NCBI GenBank assembly: GCA_964016885.1
Contig: OZ024742.1
Location: 287,060,001 to 287,124,000 of the forward strand
Length of the DNA stretch: 64,000 bases
From: Eledone cirrhosa
Taxonomy: Eukaryota
Reading direction: 5' to 3'
Below the pieces are notes generated by a model that searched no databases, had not been told where the DNA came from, and saw only the letters and a list, made by a program, of their open reading frames with translations. Below are positions 4,488 to 45,952 of the stretch, in pieces. The position numbers and the translations under genes are program-made. Numbering within the stretch: the stretch's first letter is position 1; the number at the start of each line of letters is the position of its first letter.

Positions 4488-5125
4488 CATCATCATCATC
4501 ATCGTTTAACGTCTATATTCCACGCTAGCATGGGTTTGGACGGGAATTGTCCCACTTGAGGCAAGATTGGTCGTCTTGCTTGTATAGGACTGTCTGGCAG
4601 GTTCTCTATGCCCTTCCTAACACCAACCAAGTTTACAGTGTGGACTGGGAGGTTTTTCCCGTGTTACCTACACAGCCACATTACAGCGTGGACTGTGTGT
4701 TTTTTTGTCATGACACCTACACGACCTCATTTGTTTAGGACTGGATGTTGTGGTACCAACATAACTTTACAGAGAAAGAGGTGGTGGAGTTGGGGTAGTG
4801 GGATGGGGGGTGTATATTTGATTAAGAGGTGCCTACTGACTGTAGGTTTCGCTTTGTACTTAGGCAAAGCGGGCTTTCTGTATTACTGCATAGAGCCAAA
4901 GATCTTGATGTAGTGACATTGTCTTAGAGAGGTGTAAGTATGTAAGGTCGGAATTTATCAAATCATCCCAGGTTTCTCTGGGTCTGCCTACTCCGTAACT
5001 TCCGTCAATTTTGATCTCCCTGCACTTTTTTATACAGCTGTCGTCTTTCATGCGCATCACGTGACCATACCAACGCAGTCTTCTCTCGAGTAAACAGCAT
5101 CTGGTCCCTCTTATACCTAATTTCT
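4488..5125 (-). mobile_element. 5'-truncated RTE LINE, older subfamily
   Basis: (CAT)n tail, RTE 3'UTR, ORF end MRMKDDSCIKKCREIKIDGSYGVGRPRETWDD; flanked by TA repeats. Confidence 0.9.
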
Positions 5126-7981: not shown

Positions 7982-8707
7982 TGCATGCTCCGCTGGATGT
8001 GTAACAGTAATATACGTGAACGGCAAAGCATAAACGAACTAAGGAAAAAATTAGAGATAAGAGGGATCAGATGTTGTTTACTCGAGAGAAGGCTACGTTG
8101 GTATGGACACGTGATGCGCATGAAAGTCGATAGCTGTATAACAAAGTGCAGGGCAATAAAGATAGACGGTAGTCACGGAATAGGCAGACCTAGAAAAACC
8201 TGGGACGAGCTGATAAACTCCGACATCACACACTTACACCTCTCCAAGACAATGTCACTGGACCGAGACCTTTGGCGGTACTCAGTAACAGAGAAGACCC
8301 GCCTTACCTAAATATATAGTAAAACCTACTCCAGCCAGTAGGCATCTCTAACAAAATACACCCCGTCCCACCACCCCCACCCCCACCCGATCCACACCAC
8401 CCCGTTCTATGTAAAGTTATGTTGGTGCCGCGCCATCGAGGCCGAAACAAATGAGATCGTGTAGGTGTCACGACAAAAAAACACACAGTCCACGCTGTAA
8501 TGTGGCCGTGTAGGCAACACGGTAAAAACCTCCCAGACCCACACTGTAAATGTGGTTGGTGTTAGGAAGGGCATCCAACTGTAGAAAACCTGCCAGACAG
8601 TCCTATGCGAGCAAGACAATCACTCTTGCCTCAAGTGGGACTACCCCCGTCCAAACCCATGCAAGCATGGAACACGGACGTTAAATGATGATGATGATGA
8701 TGATGAT
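7982..8707 (+). mobile_element. 5'-truncated RTE LINE (single 3'UTR unit subfamily)
   Basis: ORF 7985-8311 matches the C-terminus of the intact ORF; 3'UTR and (GAT)n tail; TA arrays on both sides. Confidence 0.95.
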
Positions 8708-9877: not shown

Positions 9878-11407
9878 CGTTTCTGAATTTGTTTAGCAAG
9901 ATTCTTTATCTGAAATCGTGTGTTGAAACCGATATTGTTATACTTTGGGAGGGTCATGTTGCCAATAAGAAACACACGCACCAGTTGCTTTCACTTCAAT
10001 TTATTATATATTTATAAATTTATAAATTTACAAATCTACAAACTTATAAATTTCTGGTTGGTTGGTTGGTTCCACAACCAGATAGTTGTTTATATATAGT
10101 CATAGTCCTTTTGTTACACACTCTGTGACCTCTTCAGTGACTGGGGTTACCATTAACAACCCAAAACAAATCCTCCATTCCCATTATGCCAAACCCATGA
10201 CTTCCAAACATCTGATCCACCGAAACTCGGTCATTTCGGACCATACCAAAATCAACATACTGATTGCGGTTTGGTACGGGTGATGAGAAATGTGTCCCGC
10301 ATGTGCAACCCCGAAGAACTAGAGAGACACATACAACACTTCATCCACCGTATGCAGTTCTCTGGCTACAATCGGAGAGATAGAATCAGAGTGTATAGAG
10401 GAGCCAGAACCAAATGGGAAAAAATGGTAAATAATGACATAAATGGGACCTGCCCCTTGTATAGGAGCAAATTTTGGAATAGAGTAGAAAGAACTAGGAA
10501 CAAGGCCAATAGAATAAACTCATGGTATGATAGCAATAAATACCAGAGTGTAATGTTAATCAATACAACCCTTAGAGGCGAAGTAGCCTACAAATTTAGA
10601 AGGGCCCTAAATAAACATAAACTCAATATTAAGATAGTAGAAAGACCAGGTACCTCCGTAAAAACACTTATTAGCAAGACATACCCGTTCCAAAGACCCT
10701 CATGTATAGATAAGAAATGTATAACCTGTAAAATAAGCCCCCATATTAACTGTAAAACTAGAAATGTAGTGTATAGCATAAGATGTACTGAAGGACAATG
10801 TAGAAACAAAAATATAGTGTACTTAGGTGAGACAGCTCGTAGTATAGGGGAATGGATAAATGAACACTGGTGAGACCTTCAAGATAATAAAGAATCATCT
10901 GTACTCTACCAACATGATAAGATAGAACACAAGGGTAAATTAGAGAACATAGAAATAAAAATAGAATCCACACACAGAAAAGATGCAATGTTTAGGCAAA
11001 TTACAGAGGCAGTAAGCATAAAAGAATTACAACCAAAATTAAATAGAAAATATGAGAGGAACAGCAACATCACAACTTACAATTAAGGACAAAATGAAAA
11101 CACACACACACATAGAACAAACAACCAACCAACAACATGTAAATAAATAAACAAATAGATAAATGAAAACAAACACACAGAGACACCCGGATGTGGCGCA
11201 TGCGCAAACTGAGCACACAACACACACACAGAAACAAAATGGCGTAGGACAGAAGAAAGGAAAGGCACAGAAACAAAGTAAGGAATCCCCAGTCACTGAA
11301 GAGGTCACAGAGTGTGTGACGAAAGGACTATGACTATATATAAACAACTATCTGGTTGTGGAACCAACCAACCAACCAGAAATTTATAAGTTTGTAGATT
11401 TGTAAAT
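9875..11407 (+). mobile_element. 5'-truncated Penelope-like element (RT thumb plus GIY-YIG endonuclease) with inverted pseudo-LTRs
   Basis: YAKPM..HLIHRNS motif, then NVVYSIRC...IVYLGETARSIGEWINEH; frameshift near 10270 and stop at 10871; 121-bp inverted arms 10026-10146 and 11287-11407. Confidence 0.9.
11291..11335 (+). ncRNA. Minimal type I hammerhead ribozyme in Penelope pseudo-LTR
   Basis: agtca-CTGAAGA-g-gtcaca(gagtg)tgtgac-GAAA-ggac-TA-tgact: stem I agtca/tgact, 6-bp stem II, vestigial stem III. Confidence 0.75.
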
Positions 11408-22396: not shown

Positions 22397-23472
22397 TTTC
22401 GTTTCTGAATTTGTTTAGCAATGGGTCATGTTGCCAATAAGAAACACACGCACCAGTTGCTTTCACTTCAATTTATTATATATTTATAAATTTATAAATT
22501 TACAAATCTACAAACTTATAAATTTCTGGTTGGTTGGTTGGTTCCACAACCAGATAGTTGTTTATATATAGTCATAGTCCTTTCGTCACACACTCTGTGT
22601 CCTCTTCAGTGACTGGGGATTCCTTTCTTTGTTTCTGTGCCTTTCCTTTCTTCTATCCTACGCCATTTTGTTTCTGTGTGTGTGTTGTGTGCTCAGTTTG
22701 TGCATGCGCCACATCCGGGTGTCTGTGTGTGTTTGTGTTCATTTATCTATTTGTTTATTTATTTATTTATTTATTGTTGGTTGGTTGTTTGCTCTATGTG
22801 TGTGTGTGTGTTTTCATTTTGTCCTGTGTGTGTTTTCATTTTGTCCTTAATTGTAAGTTGTTTGTTCTATGTGTGTGTGTGTTTTCATTTTGTCCTGTGT
22901 GTGTTTTCATTTTGTCCTTAATTGTAAGTTGTGATGTTGCTGTTCCACTCATATTTTCAATTTAATTTTGGTTGTAATTCTTCTATGCTTACTGCCTCTG
23001 TAATTTGCCTAAACATTGCATCTTTTCTGTGTGTGGATTCTATTTTTATTTCTATGTTCTCTAATCTACCCCTGTGTTCTATCTTAGCATGTTGGTAGAG
23101 CACAGATGATTCTTTATTATCTTGAAGGTCTCGCCACTGTTCATTTATTCTTTCCCCTATACTACGAGCTGTCTCACCTATGTACACTATATTTTTGTTT
23201 CTACATTGTCCTTCAGTACATCTTATGCTATACACTACATTTCTAGTTTTACAGTTAATATGGGGGCTTATTTTACAGGTTATACATTTCTTATCTATAC
23301 ATGAGGGTCTTTGGAACGGGTATGTCTTGCTAATAAGTGTTTTTACGGAGGTACCTGGTCTTTCTACTATCTTAATATTGAGTTTATGTTTATTTAGGGC
23401 CCTTCTAAATTTGTAGGCTAGTTCGCCTCTAGGGGTTGTGTTGATGAACATTACACTCTGGTATTTATTGCT
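22397..23472 (-). mobile_element. Second 5'-truncated Penelope-like copy (GIY-YIG plus pseudo-LTR)
   Basis: ORF 22957-23451 with NVVYSIRC...IVYIGETARSIGERINE; hammerhead copy at 22570-22614; highly similar to 9875-11407. Confidence 0.9.
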
Positions 23473-23502
23473 ATAAATACCAGAGTGTAATGTTCATCAA
23501 TA

Positions 23503-25376: not shown

Positions 25377-26011
25377 CATATATATATGTTTCATACATAT
25401 ATATATATACATATATACATATATATATATACATATATACATATATATATACATATGTATATATACATATATATATATATACATATGTATATATACATCA
25501 TCATCATCATCATCATCATCAGGTTTAGCGTCCGTGTTCCACGCTTGCATGGGTTTGGACGGGGGTTTTCCCACTTGAGGCAAGAGTGGTTGTCTTGCTC
25601 GCATAGGACTGTCTGGCGGGTTTTCTACAGTTGGATGCCCTTCCTAACACCAACCACATTTACAGTGTGGGGCTGGGAGGTTTTTACCGTGTTGCCTACA
25701 CGGCCACATTACAGCGTGGACTGTCTGGCGGGTTTTCTACAGCTGGATGCCCTTCCTAACACCAACCACATTTACAGTGTGGGGCTGGGAGGTTTTTACC
25801 GTGTTGCCTACACGGCCACATTTACAGCGTGGACTGTGTGTTTTTTGTCGTGACACCTACACGATCTCATTTGTTTCGGCCTGGATGTTGTGGGGCCAAC
25901 ATAACTTTACATTGAAAGGGGCGGTGTGGGTGGGGTGGAGGTGGAGGTGGTGGGACGGGGGTGTGTTTTGATAGAGGTGCCTACTGACTGTAGTAGGTTT
26001 TTACTTTGTAT

Positions 26012-29000
26012 TTAGGTAAGGCGGGTCTTCTCTATTACTGAGTACCGCCAAAGGTCTCGGTCCAGTGACATTGTCTTGGAGAGGTGTAAGCGTGTGAGGT
26101 CGGAAATTATCAGCTCGTCCCATGTTTTTCTGGGTCTGCCTACTCCGTGGCTACCGTCTATCTTTATTGCCCTGCACTTTGTTATACAGCTGTCGTCTTT
26201 CATGCGCATCACGTGACCGTACCAACGTAGCCTTCTCTCGAGTAAACAACATCTGATCCCTCTTATTTCTAATTTTTTCCTTAGTTCGTTTATGCTTTGC
26301 CGTTCACGTATATTACTATTGCACATCCAGCGGAGCATGCAAGCTTCGTTCCTCTCTAGTCTGCGTATATCCTCTGCACACAATGCCCAGGTCTCACTGC
26401 CATGCAGCATTGCTGTTCGTATGCAGGCATCGTATAACCTGCCTTTCATTTTTAGGGAGAACCCTCTAGCGGCTAATAGTGGTATAAGCTCTCTGAACTT
26501 TTTCCATCCAGTTCTGACTCTAGCTACTGTACTTTCAGAGCACCCTCCCCCACTGCTGATTTTGTCACCCAGATAACGGAAGCTATCCACTATTTCTATA
26601 GAACCCTCTGCGCAGTTGAAGGAGCTAGTATTTTGTGGGCACTTGCTGCTACTTATTGCACCAGAGCACCGGCCACATGTAAAATCTATGTTCTTAGTTA
26701 GCTTACCTGTGATCCCACTACATCTTTTATGCACCCATACTTTGCATTTGGGACATAAAATGGAGTTTCTACCTACGCCTTTCCTACACACTGAGCATGG
26801 CCATTTCCCCGATGGGACCGCCGCCTTATTTTCTTTCCTACAAACTAGAACTTTAGTCTTAGCCAGGTTAATTTTAAGGCCTTTTGATTCTAGGCCGTGC
26901 TTCCACGTTTGGAATTTCTTCTCTAGTTCGGTCATTGATTCAGCTATGAGCGTTAGATCATCTGCGTATAGGAGTTCCCATGGGCAGCCGGTCTTGAACT
27001 CCTCTGTTATAGCCTGAAGGGCAATAATAAATAGTAGGGGGCTAAGTACAGAGCCCTGATGGACACCAACTTTTACGCTAAACTCTTCACTATATTCGTT
27101 GTTAATTCTAACCTTACTGACTGTTTCTTTATACATGGCTTGTATAGCTCTCACAAGCCATTCGTCAACACCTAGTTTTCTAAGAGACCACCAGATAATG
27201 GAACGGGGGACTCTGTCGAAGGCTTTCTCCAAGTCGACAAAAGCTAAGTATAGGGGTTTACTTTTAGCTAGGTACTTCTCCTGTAGTTGTCGTACAATGA
27301 AAAGAGCGTCTGTGGTACTTTTGCCTGACACAAACCCGAACTGCATTTCATCTAGATCAATTCTCTCTCTGATTAGTTGCGCTATTACTTTTTCCGTGAC
27401 CTTCATGACCTGGTCGATTAATTTAATGCCTCTATAGTTACTCCTATCTAGGGCATCTCCTTTTCCCTTATAGCAGTTAACGATGATGCTGCTACGCCAT
27501 TCCTTCGGAACAACCCCATTCTGTACGACTTGGTTAACTATCCGGGTGACCATGGTGTGTCCCACCGAACCAGATGCCTTCAGCATCTCAGCAACTATTT
27601 CCGAAGGCCCAGCCGCCTTACCCGTCTTCATATCTTTGATTGCCTTACTTATTATACTACCTTCAACTAACACTGCTGGTCCCTCTATTGGATCGATCTG
27701 GGGGAGACTATCTTTCTCCCATTTGTTCTCCTCATTTAGAAGCCTTTCGTAGTGACACTTCCAAGCTACCTTCTTATCAGCGTCGGTGATGGCAAGTATG
27801 CCATCATCGTTAAGTACACACTTCTCCCCGACAATATCACGGTTTTCCTTGACACATTGCCTGGCAATCCTGAACACCTCACGTTTTTGGTCCTCACGTT
27901 GTAGAACATGCTTGAACTTTCTTTCCTCTGCTTCCCTTCTTGCGAAGTACACTTGTCTCCTAGCTTCCCTCCTGGCCACTTGATAGTCTTCTCTACTTCC
28001 CCCATCCCGCCATACTTTCCAAGCCTGCTTTTTGGCCTTAATTGACTCCTCCACCTTACTGTTCCACCACCATGTTACTCTCCTCCTACCTACAGGCCTG
28101 CTCCAGCCACAGACTTCGTCTGCCGCCGTCAGCAGGTTTGCTCTCAGGAATTCCCACTGTTCCTCTATATTATACGACTCTAATTGCTCTTCCTTACTGT
28201 CGAAAGCGTCAAGTAATTTGCTTTGAAATTTATTTCTGGCTATGGGGTCCTTTAGCTTCCATATTTTTCTCCTGAGGATAGTCCTCTTTCGCTGTCTAGT
28301 ACGTCTCGTCCTGACTATGAGGTCGCTAATTATCAGTCTATGTTGGGAGGTGAATTCTTCATGGGGGTGGGATTTAGTGTTAACAACAGACACTCTGTCA
28401 CGTCTTCTGGTAAGGATATAATCTACCTGGCTTGTGTGTTCCCCCGACCTATAGGTGATCAAGTGATTGTCTCGTTTTTTGAAGTTAGTGTTACAGATAG
28501 TTAAGTTATTTGCGTCGCAGAATTCCAGGATTCTGGAGCCTTCCTCATTTCTAGTACCGAACCCATAGCCTCCATGGATTCCGTCATAGCCGTCACAATG
28601 TTGTCCAACGTGACCATTTAGGTCGCCTGCAATAACTATATAGTCACTGTCGGTTATTTGGGAGGTAGCGAGCATCAGTGTCTCGTAGAATCTGTCTTTT
28701 ATAGCGCGGGGCTGTCCGGATTGGGGTGCGTACGCAGATATTACTGTCACCGTAGTTTTATTGAGGACAAGTCTTATTTTAATTATTCTGTCGTTCACTC
28801 TATTTACGTCTATTATCTTATCTGCCCACTTTTCTGCTACCATGATTCCTACCCCACCCAACCCATTGTCATTTCCCACCCAGAAAAGCTTATAGCATCG
28901 CTCTTTACCCACGATGAATCTAGCCGACCCTCCCCTCCACCTGGTCTCTTGAATACAACAAACATCGACCTCCTTACGTTCAAGCATTTCTACAACCTCG

Positions 29001-29245
29001 TTCGAGCGACCCTTTAAGGTGCCTACATTCATGGTACCAACTCTGAAGTTTTGGATTGCGTTTGGAGGGTGGGAGCGGTGGGGCGCGGGGGGGGGTGGGG
29101 TTATGTTAGCCATCCTGGGCCGAAACAAGGAGGAGTGCTTGCATTCTCGTCCACGAGGTGAATTTGGCTTTATCTTTGGCATTGTCGCTGAGCGTCCACA
29201 TTTTTCTCTCTTCAACTCTCCAGAATTCCGTAGTCCATCCATCAT
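26012..29245 (-). CDS. RTE ORF: APE endonuclease, reverse transcriptase and PHD finger
   Basis: Uninterrupted frame with APE motifs GTMNVGTL, IQETRW, SAYAPQ, GDLNGH, QVDYIL and RT motifs NYRGIKL, QFGF, FVDLEKAFD, GVHQGSVLSPLLF, YADD, FRYLG. Track start 29257 is TTG; ATGs at 29245, 29242, 29182 and 29113. Confidence 0.95.
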   Translation of the reverse strand: MMDGLRNSGELKREKCGRSATMPKIKPNSPRGRECKHSSLFRPRMANITPPPPAPHRSHPPNAIQNFRVGTMNVGTLKGRSNEVVEMLERKEVDVCCIQETRWRGGSARFIVGKERCYKLFWVGNDNGLGGVGIMVAEKWADKIIDVNRVNDRIIKIRLVLNKTTVTVISAYAPQSGQPRAIKDRFYETLMLATSQITDSDYIVIAGDLNGHVGQHCDGYDGIHGGYGFGTRNEEGSRILEFCDANNLTICNTNFKKRDNHLITYRSGEHTSQVDYILTRRRDRVSVVNTKSHPHEEFTSQHRLIISDLIVRTRRTRQRKRTILRRKIWKLKDPIARNKFQSKLLDAFDSKEEQLESYNIEEQWEFLRANLLTAADEVCGWSRPVGRRRVTWWWNSKVEESIKAKKQAWKVWRDGGSREDYQVARREARRQVYFARREAEERKFKHVLQREDQKREVFRIARQCVKENRDIVGEKCVLNDDGILAITDADKKVAWKCHYERLLNEENKWEKDSLPQIDPIEGPAVLVEGSIISKAIKDMKTGKAAGPSEIVAEMLKASGSVGHTMVTRIVNQVVQNGVVPKEWRSSIIVNCYKGKGDALDRSNYRGIKLIDQVMKVTEKVIAQLIRERIDLDEMQFGFVSGKSTTDALFIVRQLQEKYLAKSKPLYLAFVDLEKAFDRVPRSIIWWSLRKLGVDEWLVRAIQAMYKETVSKVRINNEYSEEFSVKVGVHQGSVLSPLLFIIALQAITEEFKTGCPWELLYADDLTLIAESMTELEKKFQTWKHGLESKGLKINLAKTKVLVCRKENKAAVPSGKWPCSVCRKGVGRNSILCPKCKVWVHKRCSGITGKLTKNIDFTCGRCSGAISSSKCPQNTSSFNCAEGSIEIVDSFRYLGDKISSGGGCSESTVARVRTGWKKFRELIPLLAARGFSLKMKGRLYDACIRTAMLHGSETWALCAEDIRRLERNEACMLRWMCNSNIRERQSINELRKKLEIRGIRCCLLERRLRWYGHVMRMKDDSCITKCRAIKIDGSHGVGRPRKTWDELIISDLTRLHLSKTMSLDRDLWRYSVIEKTRLT

Positions 29246-29386
29246 ATCGAAAAGCAACCAGTTAAGCGATAGTATGGGCCTCTGACTTATGATTGGTCCA
29301 CGTAATAATGGTGGTGCGTGGGGGCGGGAGGGAGGGATGATGGGTTGTTAGCGAGAATGTAAGGATTAAGATAAGATCGCCGTATT

Positions 29387-30275
29387 TTGGGCATGATTTA
29401 ACAATAAACGAAAATACAAGATTTGTTTTGTTTAAGAAATTACGATAGAGAAAATGCGGTGGTAGGGGAAGTATGATTTTTAGAGAAAAGATATGATATA
29501 TAATGGTGAAAATATGATATAGTGTGAAATTAGGACATAGAAGTGATTGAATGAATGGGTTCGGATGGAGAGAAGGATCGAGAAAGAAATTGGGCATAAT
29601 TTAACAATAAACGAAAATACAAGATTTGTTTTGTTTAAGAAATTACGATAGAGAAAATGCGGTGGTAGGGGAAGTATGATTTTTAGAGAAAAGATATGAT
29701 ATATAATGGTGAAAATATGATATAGTGTGAAATTAGGACATAGAAGTGATTGAATGAATGGGTTCGGATGGAGAGAAGGATCGAGAAAGAAATTGGGCAT
29801 AATTTAACAATAAACGAAAATACAAGATTTGTTTTGTTTAAGAAATTACGATAGAGAAAATGCGGTGGTAGGGGAAGTATGATTTTTAGAGAAAAGATAT
29901 GATATATAGATATGATATATAATGGTGAAAATATGATATAGTGTGAAATTAGGACATAGAAGTGATTGAATGAATGGGTTCGGATGGAGAGAAGGATCGA
30001 GAAAGAAATTGGGCATAATTTAACAATAAACGAAAATACAAGATTTGTTTTGTTTAAGAAATTACGATAGAGAAAATGCGGTGGTAGGGGAAGTATGATT
30101 TTTAGAGAAAAGATATGATATATAATGGTGAAAATATGATATAGTGTGAAATTAGGACATAGAAGTGATTGAATGAATGGGTTCGGATGGAGAGAAGGAT
30201 CGAGAAAGAAATTGGGCATAATTTAACAATAAACGAAAATACAAGATTTGTTTTGTTTAAGAAATTACGATAGAG
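29387..30275 (-). promoter_or_regulatory. Tandem 203-bp monomer array (about 4.3 copies) at the LINE 5' end, putative promoter
   Basis: Near-identical units spaced 203, 216 and 203 bp (one has a 13-bp duplication); promoter function is inferred. Confidence 0.6.
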
Positions 30276-41460: not shown

Positions 41461-44298
41461 TCATCATCATCATTATCATCATCAACGTTTAACGTCCGTG
41501 TTCCACGCTTGCATGGGTTTGGACGGGGGTAGTCCCACTTGAGGCAAGAGTGATTGTCTTGCTCGCATAGGACTGTCTGGCAGGTTTTCTACAGTTGGAT
41601 GCCCTTCCTAACACCAACCACATTTACAGTGTGGGACTGGGAGGTTTTTACCGTGTTGCCTACACGGCCACATTACAGCGTGGACTGTGTGTTTTTTTGT
41701 CGTGACACCTACACGATCTCATTTGTTTCGGCCTGGATGGCGCGGCACCAACATAACTTTACATAGAACGGGGTGGTGTGGATGGGGTGGGGGTGGGGTG
41801 GTGGGACGGGGTGTATTTTGTTAGAGATGCCTACTGGCTGGAGTAGGTTTTACTATATATATTTAGGTAAGGCGGGTCTTCTCTGTTACTGAGTACCGCC
41901 AAAGGTCTCGGTCCAGTGACATTGTCTTGGAGAGGTGTAAGTGTGTGATGTCGGAGTTTATCAGCTCGTCCCAGGTTTTTCTAGGTCTGCCTATTCCGTG
42001 ACTACCGTCTATCTTTATTGCCCTGCACTTTGTTATACAGCTATCGACTTTCATGCGCATCACGTGACCATACCAACGTAGCCTTCTCTCGAGTAAACAA
42101 CATCTGATCCCTCTTATCTCTAATTTTTTCCTTAGTTCGTTTCTGCTTTGCCGTTCACGTATATTACTGTTACACATCCAGCGGAGCATGCAAGCTTCGT
42201 TCCTCTCTAGTCTGCGTATATCCTCTGCACACAATGACCAGGTCTCACTGCCATGCCAAATTGCTGTTCGTATGCAGGCATCGTACAACCTGCCTTTCAT
42301 TTTTAGGGAGAACCCTTTAGCAGCTAATAGTGGTATAAGCTCTCTGAACTTTTTCCAACCAGTTCTGACTCTAGCTACAGTACTTTCAGAGCACCCTCCC
42401 CCACTGCTGATTTTATCGCCCAGGTAACGGAAGCTGTCCACTATTTCTATAGAACCCTCTGCGCAATTGAAAGAGCTAGTATTTTGTGGGCACTTGCTGC
42501 TACTTATTGCACCAGAACACCGGCCACATGTAAAATCTATGTTCTTAGTTAGCTTACCTGTGATCCCACTACATCTTTTATGCACCCATACTTTGCATTT
42601 AGGACATAAAATGGAGTTTCTACCTACGCCTTTCCTACACACCGAGCACGACCATTTCCCAGAAGGGACCGCCGCCTTGTTTTCTTTCCTACAAACTAGT
42701 ACTTTGGTCTTAGCCAGGTTAATTTTAAGTCCTTTTGACTCTAGGCCGTGCTTCCATGTTTGGAATTTCTTCTCTAGCTCGGCCATTGATTCCGCTATGA
42801 GCGTCAGGTCGTCTGCGTATAGGAGCTCCCATGGGCAGCCTGTCTTGAACTCCTCTGTTATAGCCTGAAGGGCAATAATAAATAGTAGTGGGCTGAGAAC
42901 AGAGCCCTGATGGACGCCAACTTTTACGCTAAACTCTTCACTATATTCGTTGTTAATTCTAACCTTGCTGACTGTTTCTTTATACATGGCTTGTATAGCC
43001 CTCACAAGCCATTCGTCAACGCCTAGTTTTCTAAGAGCCCACCAGATAATGGAGCGGGGGACTCTGTCGAAGGCTTTCTCCAAGTCGACAAAAGCTAAGT
43101 AGAGGGGTTTACCTTTAGCTAGGTACTTCTCCTGTAGTTGTCGTACTATGAAAAGAGCGTCTGTGGTACTTTTGCCTGACACAAACCCGAACTGCATTTC
43201 ATCTAGGTCAATTCTCTCTCTGATTAGTTGCGCTATTACTTTTTCCGTGACCTTCATGACCTGGTCGATTAATTTAATGCCTCTATAGTTTCTCCTATCT
43301 AGGGCGTCTCCTTTACCCTTATAACAGTTAACGATGATGCTGCTATGCCAGTCCTTCGGAACAACCCCATTCTGTACGACTTGGTTAACTATGCGGGTGA
43401 CCATGTTGTGTCCCACCGTGCCAGATGCCTTCAGCATCTCAGCAACTATTTCCGAAGGCCCAGCCGCCTTACCCGTCTTCATATCCTTGATTGCCTTACT
43501 TATTATACTCCCCTCGACTAACACTGCTGGTCCCTCTATTGGGTCGATATGGGGGAGACTGTCTTTCTCCCATTTATTCTCCTCATTTAGTAGCCTTTCA
43601 TAGTGACACTTCCAAGCTACCTTCTTATCAGCGTCGGTGATGGCAAGTGTGCCATCGTCGTTTAGTACACACTTCTCCCCGACAATATCACGGTTTTCCT
43701 TGACGCATTGCCTAGCAATCCTGAACACCTCACGTTTTTGGTCATCGCGTTGTAGAACATGCTTGAACTTTCTTTCCTCAGCTTCCCTTCTTGCTAAGTA
43801 CACTTGTCTCCTAGCTTCCCTCCTGGCCACTTGATAGTCCTCTCTACTTCCCCCATCCCGCCATACTTTCCAAGCCTGCTTTTTGGCCTTAATTGACCCC
43901 TCCACCTTACTGTTCCACCATCATGTTACTCTCCTCCTGCCTACAGGCCTGCTCCAGCCACAGACTTCGTCTGTCGCCAACAGCAGGTTTGCTTTCAGAA
44001 ATTCCCACTCTCCCTCTATATTGTCCGACTCTAAATGTTCTTCCTTACTGTCGAAAGCATCAAGTAATATGCTTTGAAATTTATTCCTGGCTGTGGGGTC
44101 CTTTAGCTTCCCTATTTTTCTCCTGAGGATAGTCCTCTTCTGCTGTCGAGTACGTCTCGTCCTGACTATGAGGTCGCTAATTATCAGTCTATGTTGGGAG
44201 GTGCATTCTTCATGGGGGAGGGATTTAGTGTTTACAACAGACACTCTGTCACGTCTTCTGGTAAGGATATAATCTACCTGGCTTGTGTGTTCCCCGGA
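41461..44298 (-). mobile_element. 5'-truncated RTE LINE (2.8 kb) with one nonsense mutation
   Basis: Frames 43921-44244 and 41863-43905 are separated by TGG>TGA at 43921-43923; RT and PHD intact. Confidence 0.95.
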
Positions 44299-44387
44299 TC
44301 TCTATATATATATACATATATATATATACATATATATACATATATATATACATATATACATACATATATACATATATACATACATAA

Positions 44388-45261: not shown

Positions 45262-45292
<31 letters not shown>

Positions 45293-45952
45293 GGTTTAGC
45301 GTCCGTGTTCCACGCTTGCATGGGTTTGGACGGGGGTTTTCCCACTTGAGGCAAGAGTGGTTGTCTTGCTCGCATAGGACTGTCTGGCGGGTTTTCTACA
45401 GTTGGATGCCCTTCCTAACACCAACCACATTTACAGTGTGGGGCTGGGAGGTTTTTACCGTGTTGCCTACACGGCCACATTACAGCGTGGACTGTCTGGC
45501 GGGTTTTCTACAGCTGGATGCCCTTCCTAACACCAACCACATTTACAGTGTGGGGCTGGGAGGTTTTTACCGTGTTGCCTACACGGCCACATTTACAGCG
45601 TGGACTGTGTGTTTTTTGTCGTGACACCTACACGATCTCATTTGTTTCGGCCTGGATGTTGTGGGACCAACATAACTTTACATTGAAAGGGGCGGTGTGG
45701 GTGGGGTGGAGGTGGTGGGACGGGGGTGTGTTTTGATAGAGATGCCTACTGACTGTAGTAGGTTTTTACTTTGTATTTAGGTAAGGCGGGTCTTCTCTAT
45801 TACTGAGTACCGCCAAAGGTCTCGGTCCAGTGACATTGTCTTGGAGAGGTGTAAGCGTGTGAGGTCGGAATTTATCAGCTCGTCCCATGTTTTTCTGGGT
45901 CTGCCTACTCCGTGGCTACCGTCTATCTTTATTGCCCTGCACTTTGTTATAC
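45262..45952 (-). mobile_element. 5'-truncated RTE LINE, sister of the intact copy
   Basis: Shares the diagnostic tail junction catcaggtttagcgtccg and the duplicated 3'UTR unit with the 25496 copy. Confidence 0.95.

What the first reader, a model, noticed from the sequence alone, without database searches (positions are those of the whole stretch)
25871..29128. Possible 5'-3' RNA panhandle in the intact RTE LINE that covers an AUG
Seen: plus-strand 29100-29128 (gttatgttagc-catcc-tg-ggccgaaacaa) and 25871-25905 (ttgtttcggcc-t-ggatg-ttgtggg-gccaacataac) are inverted repeats 3.2 kb apart. In the element RNA the 5' segment UUGUUUCGGCC-CA-GGAUG-GCUAACAUAAC can pair with the 3'UTR in helices of 11, 5 and 11 bp (one G-U). 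The paired region covers the in-frame AUG at 29113, which has a strong context (AGG-AUG-G) and lies just upstream of the endonuclease domain. Across the other 3'UTR copies, ccaacataac is invariant even in the old copies near 4750 and 60830, while the predicted 7-nt bulge is highly variable. Both sites sit next to C-rich tracts. Inference: end-to-end pairing could switch the RNA between translation and reverse transcription, as cyclisation sequences do in some RNA viruses. I am not aware of this being described for RTE LINEs.
Basis: partly seen in the sequence, partly recalled or inferred. Interest (0 to 1): 0.75.

Follow-up and report, generated by a model that had tools for sequence, protein, structure and literature searches.

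The report
Long-range RNA helix in RTE LINE
Two short stretches 3.2 kb apart in this jumping gene are complementary and changed together during the family's evolution, so they likely pair in its RNA, but they are not the RNA's ends, the covered AUG is likely not the start codon, and the oldest relatives lack the match.

Summary
The inverted repeat is real: 27 pairs, -37 kcal/mol, and it forms in the predicted fold of 3.85 kb of the RNA. It is not a terminal panhandle: the arms lie about 1,150 and 370 nt inside a 4.8-kb element. AUG 29113 is likely an internal Met: it is ACG in 20 of 20 copies of a young sister subfamily and absent in 27 of 27 oldest-family copies; AUG 29182 is the likely start. 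Across 82 copies with both arms, pairing is kept through two compensatory changes, G-U swaps and one re-registered helix, better than 51 of 51 control helices in the best-calibrated test, but less clearly in others. Against it: single-sequence strength is not exceptional, 19 copies lost 5 nt of one helix, a local 3' hairpin explains part of the conservation, and the oldest family shows no pairing (0 of 9). Verdict: a lineage-specific long-range helix, about even odds functional, resembling Ty1 CYC5/CYC3. I found no description for RTE LINEs and no earlier scan note on it.

The parts
25497..30275 (-). Full-length RTE-type LINE (boundaries approximate; flanks are TA microsatellite)
29286..30275 (-). 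5' UTR array of about five ~203-bp monomers
26012..29182 (-). ORF from the likely start AUG 29182 (1056 aa): endonuclease, RT, PHD finger; the frame is open from 29347
   Evidence: the start is inferred from conservation
29100..29128 (-). 5' arm, inside the coding sequence (codons 19-28 counted from 29182)
29111..29113 (-). Internal AUG (codon 24); ACG in subfamily D, mostly AAA in family C
25871..25905 (-). 3' arm in the 3' UTR; likely a degenerate copy of the tandem 3' UTR hairpin unit
   Evidence: paralogy judged by eye
25885..25902 (-). Predicted local 6-bp hairpin within the 3' arm, mutually exclusive with the long-range helix
25847..25866 (-). Second 3' UTR hairpin unit, directly after the 3' arm
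25744..25767 (-). Conserved RTE motif with the core GGAAGGGCATCC, copy 1; in the 5' UTR in two distant relatives
25632..25655 (-). Same motif, copy 2 (112-bp duplication)

Best explanation
The two complementary arms likely form a long-range RNA helix, kept by weak selection in the younger subfamilies of this RTE LINE, that joins the N-terminal coding region to the first 3' UTR hairpin unit and would be opened by each translating ribosome. Shown: the complementarity, its position inside the ORF and 3' UTR, and its history across subfamilies. Predicted by folding: the helix outcompetes a local 3' hairpin in young copies. Inferred and untested: once ribosomes have cleared, the helix re-forms, melts the local hairpin and holds the 3' UTR hairpin array near the 5' part of the RNA, favouring the replicative ribonucleoprotein state; it tunes rather than permits retrotransposition.
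For: Two double-sided changes between old and young subfamilies (A-U to G-C; A-U to C-G) plus G-U swaps; 25 of 27 pairs are kept despite 12-13 substitutions in 66 nt. Cognate arms pair better than crossed ones: young 5' with young 3' -35 to -43, young 5' with old 3' -17 to -29, old 5' with young 3' -22 to -26 kcal/mol. Retention against 51 control long-range helices of the same element: 0 of 51 as good for B, 4 of 51 for I1, 0 of 51 for D, 0 of 51 for I1+D. 1 of 59 controls has two compensatory pairs. Sister subfamily D lost the middle helix but gained a re-registered one through two 3' loop changes. The helix is in the minimum-energy fold of 3851 nt and has pair probabilities 0.8-1.0 in a two-fragment ensemble.
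Against: Strength on one sequence is not an outlier. The tree-path null was lenient (11 of 44 controls had P<=0.05) and the arm ranked second, tied with a third. The B comparison is inflated by a gap. D alone from its real ancestor gives P=0.145. 19 of 65 copies lack 5 nt of the inner helix, and a sub-branch has an uncompensated G-A mismatch. With flanks included the helix is predicted in 0 of 9 B copies, 5 of 10 intermediate copies, 7 of 7 A1/A2 copies and 2 of 3 D copies. Absent in family C. No pile-up of truncations (2 of 30) and no loop-out deletion copies. All subfamilies come from one genome and mostly one lineage.
Confidence: 0.5

Rival explanations
1. Chance complementarity. The 5' arm is constrained as coding sequence and the 3' arm as a local hairpin of the tandem 3' UTR unit. 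The match was picked because it peaks in the youngest subfamily, so it must look weaker back in time.
For: Comparable helices occur elsewhere in the element. The local hairpin explains the conserved 3' strand and its core survives the 5-nt deletion. D's 3' changes also give a local hairpin. Several 5' changes are synonymous (read). A listing abstract (PMC6193969) reports that long RNAs generally fold with their ends close.
Against: Both compensatory pairs lie in the outer helix, outside the local hairpin. Retention exceeds controls after conditioning on the young state.
Confidence: 0.4
2. One reading: the helix hides the start codon at 29113 and switches translation off.
For: The AUG lies in the middle helix and has a good context; it is present in the B to A1 subfamily majorities.
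Against: ACG in 20 of 20 D copies; ATG in 0 of 27 C copies; an upstream in-frame AUG and the SSLF peptide are conserved.
Confidence: 0.05
3. A DNA-level or processing signal instead of RNA pairing: an inverted protein-binding site, a splice acceptor at the 5' arm, or a template-switch guide.
For: The antisense strands pair nearly as well (-34.9 against -37.2). Families B and C have a pyrimidine tract plus CAG at the 5' arm.
Against: G-U-type changes keep pairing only on the sense strand. The AG is missing in D. No deletion junction across the helix base was found.
Confidence: 0.05

Closest known systems
Ty1 LTR-retrotransposon CYC5/CYC3 cyclization (PMC7969010, passages read)
   Same: Long-range base pairing between 5'- and 3'-proximal sequences of a retroelement RNA, competing with local structure.
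   Different: Ty1 is an LTR element with tRNA priming and strand transfer, and its pairing has genetic support. Here the element is non-LTR, the pairing is young and lineage-restricted, and no function is tested.
Orthoflavivirus 5'/3' complementary sequences (PMC12168079, listing and start of abstract; the position in the capsid coding region is recalled)
   Same: Complementary 5' and 3' sequences proposed to switch RNA conformation.
   Different: Essential and conserved across the genus; here dispensable in part and absent from the oldest family.
RTE 3' hairpins and bipartite RTE-derived SINEs (PMC5786205, parts 2-4 of 5 and passages; PMC6007223, passages)
   Same: RTE elements carry conserved 5' UTR and 3' UTR pieces; a local 3' hairpin with compensatory changes is described in plants.
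   Different: The parts I read propose no pairing between the 5' and 3' pieces; the 5' arm here is coding sequence, and no bipartite derivative at the arms was found.
RTE-2_OV of Octopus vulgaris (PMC9115989, passages)
   Same: RTE LINE with a single ORF of about 1,100 aa, endonuclease, RT and a zinc finger.
   Different: Sequence identity not tested; its 3' UTR is described as mostly microsatellite, unlike the 500-nt structured 3' UTR here.

Membership tests
RTE-clade LINE | Single ORF with apurinic-type endonuclease and RT | tested here: met
RTE-clade LINE | 3' end of short tandem repeats without poly(A); frequent 5' truncation | tested here: met
   (GAT)n tail; 19 of 30 copies truncated within 1.5 kb
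RTE-clade LINE | RT phylogeny places it among named RTEs | not tested
Terminal panhandle | Arms at the RNA's 5' and 3' termini | tested here: not met
   About 1,150 and 370 nt inside the element; the transcript start is not measured
Cyclization sequences (Ty1, flavivirus type) | Complementary 5'- and 3'-proximal segments predicted to pair over local structure | tested here: met
   young subfamilies only
Cyclization sequences (Ty1, flavivirus type) | Covariation that preserves pairing | tested here: inconclusive
   Two compensatory pairs; empirical rank 1-5 of 45-60 depending on the test
Cyclization sequences (Ty1, flavivirus type) | Conserved across the family | tested here: not met
   0 of 9 family C copies; 5-nt loss in 19 of 65 copies
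Cyclization sequences (Ty1, flavivirus type) | Required for replication and rescued by compensatory mutation | not testable with these tools
   needs a retrotransposition assay
Start-codon-sequestering switch | The paired AUG is the initiation codon | tested here: not met
   (by conservation, not by ribosome data)

The most novel reading that the evidence does not exclude
A non-LTR retrotransposon evolved its own cyclization helix de novo, and the dated subfamilies record its stepwise build-up, compensation and re-registration; the helix works as a ribosome-gated switch that remodels the 3' UTR hairpin array for reverse transcription.
Probability: 0.3. Interest if true: 0.75.

Novelty: new variant of a known kind. 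Interest (0 to 1): 0.48.

Why it matters
How a LINE RNA passes from being translated to being reverse-transcribed is an open question, and LINE cis-signals are usually treated as local 3' hairpins. A coding-region-to-3' UTR helix would give RTE RNA a cyclization step like Ty1 or flaviviruses. The natural subfamily variants (one lacking 5 nt, one re-registered) supply ready disrupt-and-rescue designs. If it is chance, the case shows how a match picked in the youngest copy mimics evolutionary build-up.

Tried and rejected
Full 3.8-kb partition function: timed out; a two-fragment ensemble was used, which ignores competition from the ORF interior. Rfam scan: only microsatellite-driven hits below gathering scores, no ribozyme. 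Distant relatives: metagenome, genome and viral contig scans gave 3, 14 and 1 loci; none that I examined had both the region upstream of the endonuclease and the 3' UTR; L314 appears 5'-truncated, so its negative result (233 of 500 shuffles) is not a valid test. Sequencing runs: no RNA holder listed; contigs of two other organisms barely covered the arms. Loop-out bipartite copies: 0 matches to one exact junction pattern. RT stalling at the helix: 2 of 30 truncations in the 40-nt arm, about 0.8 expected by my arithmetic; not significant. ADAR footprint: 13 A>G against 4 T>C rare changes in 126 3' arms, over about 12 A and 7 T sites; inconclusive. Splice-acceptor idea: dropped because D lacks the AG. 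Target-site duplication could not be fixed inside the TA microsatellite. Literature searches listed no paper on 5'-3' pairing in RTE LINEs; the library lacks most subscription papers, Gogolevsky 2008 was seen only as a citation, and no supplements were read.

Full report
Observation. The segments are as described: 29100-29128 and 25871-25905 co-fold on the minus (sense) strand with 27 pairs and -37.2 kcal/mol. The helix is in the minimum-energy fold of 3851 nt and has pair probabilities of 0.8-1.0 in a two-fragment ensemble. On one sequence it is strong but not an outlier: rank 3 of 222 windows, rank 2 of 60 compact long-range helices, and 16 of 500 shuffles reach its inverted-repeat score against the 3' UTR.

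Anatomy. The element has one ORF with endonuclease, RT and PHD domains, a (GAT)n tail near 25497 and a 5' array of about five 203-bp monomers reaching about 30275. The arms are therefore about 1,150 and 370 nt from the ends. The genome is 3.0 Gb; that it is an octopus is my inference from recalled features and the likeness to RTE-2_OV (PMC9115989, passages), not a call result. The 3' UTR is built from tandem hairpin units, and the 3' arm looks like a degenerate first unit (by eye). It can fold into its own 6-bp hairpin, which excludes the long-range helix.

The AUG. 29113 is the fourth in-frame AUG. A young sister subfamily, D (about 94% identical; 3,065 exact hits to one 3' pattern), has ACG there in 20 of 20 fetched copies, and three of these keep stop-free frames of 1079-1114 aa across it. 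In the oldest family, C (68-75% identical), 0 of 27 copies have ATG at that codon, while the SSLF peptide and an upstream Met are kept. The Met at 29182 recurs in the subfamily majorities whose frame could be read. The 5' arm is thus coding sequence, about codons 19-28, and start-codon masking is not supported.

History of the pairing. Of 141 fetched loci with an endonuclease anchor, 95 reached the stop codon, 77 passed coverage and consistency filters, 73 were above 78% identity, and 65 of these had both arms; 17 of 20 D copies were added. Sampling was partly by genome order and partly seeded. An ORF tree gave a ladder with side branches. Family C shows no pairing (z from -0.9 to +1.2 in 9 of 9 copies). 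Pairing appears at about 83-87% identity and strengthens to -37 to -44 kcal/mol in young copies. Between old and young states 25 of 27 pairs are kept, with two double-sided changes (A-U to G-C, A-U to C-G), G-U swaps and two mismatch repairs. Crossed arms pair worse than cognate ones. In D the middle helix is broken at two places, and two 3' loop changes create a new register.

Controls. Because the match was chosen in the youngest subfamily, older states must look weaker, so I ran neutral simulations outward from the young state. They gave P about 0.02 for energy and 0.05 for two compensatory pairs, and P=0.003 over the tree. Control helices showed the tree null to be lenient: 11 of 44 reached P<=0.05, and the arm ranked second, tied with a third. 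A pairwise null was better calibrated (control z mean about -0.2, sd about 1): 0, 4 and 0 of 51 controls matched the arm for B, I1 and D, and 0 of 51 for I1+D (8 gapped controls dropped; the B value is inflated by a gap). 1 of 59 controls had two compensatory pairs. These tests overlap; together they are moderate support, about p 0.02-0.07.

Against. 19 of 65 copies lack 5 nt of the inner helix but keep the local hairpin core. A sub-branch carries an uncompensated mismatch. With flanks, the helix is predicted in 0 of 9 B copies and 5 of 10 intermediate copies, though old copies carry post-insertion damage. D's changes alone are not significant (P=0.145) and also make a local hairpin. No truncation pile-up, loop-out copies or clear editing footprint was seen.

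Mechanism. I put 0.5 on a selected long-range helix. Elongating ribosomes would open it, since the 5' arm is coding; when they clear, it would re-form, melt the local hairpin and hold the 3' UTR array near the 5' region. These steps are inferred. I put 0.4 on chance plus separate local constraints, 0.05 on start-codon masking and 0.05 on DNA-level or processing signals.

Comparison. It works like Ty1 CYC5/CYC3 (PMC7969010, passages) or flavivirus complementary sequences (PMC12168079, start of abstract), but fails the terminal-position and family-wide conservation tests. The parts of PMC5786205 and PMC6007223 that I read describe bipartite RTE SINEs and local 3' hairpins, not 5'-3' pairing. Searches listed no such report for RTE LINEs; supplements were not read. 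Earlier scan notes held nothing on this pairing; related notes gave the editing lead and agree on the monomer arrays. Interest 0.48; new variant of a known kind.

Noticed in passing
window 25744-25767 and 25632-25655 (-); L315:199; L251:1830: The motif with the core GGAAGGGCATCC lies in the 5' UTR of two distant relatives (45-47% protein identity) but only in the 3' UTR of this family, suggesting relocation or capture of a bipartite RTE module.
   Followed up: partly
window 29286-30275 (-): Array of ~203-bp monomers at the 5' end, with copies starting at variable places in it, as recalled for mouse L1.
   Followed up: partly
window 41463-44304 (-), 7982-8707 (+); L359-L378: A second very young subfamily (D) with near-identical copies and open frames coexists with the window's subfamily; it also lost the next Met (GTMNVG to GTINVG).
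   Followed up: yes
L212, L217, L218, L223, L226: Several family C copies reach the stop codon only 0.9-1.7 kb after the endonuclease start, hinting at internally deleted derivatives.
   Followed up: no
window 45271-45952 (-) and 25500-26187: A 5'-truncated copy 98.7% identical to the intact element, with the same 112-bp duplication, lies 20 kb away.
   Followed up: no
window 10157-10873 (+) and 22957-23493 (-): ORF fragments that look like Penelope-type GIY-YIG endonuclease regions (label recalled).
   Followed up: no
G000:C1:143304822-143793908: Old copies recur at about 60-kb intervals on one strand, pointing to a tandem segmental array.
   Followed up: no
L314, L315, L318: RTE-like elements sit on contigs of bacterial genome bins, probably eukaryotic contamination.
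   Followed up: no
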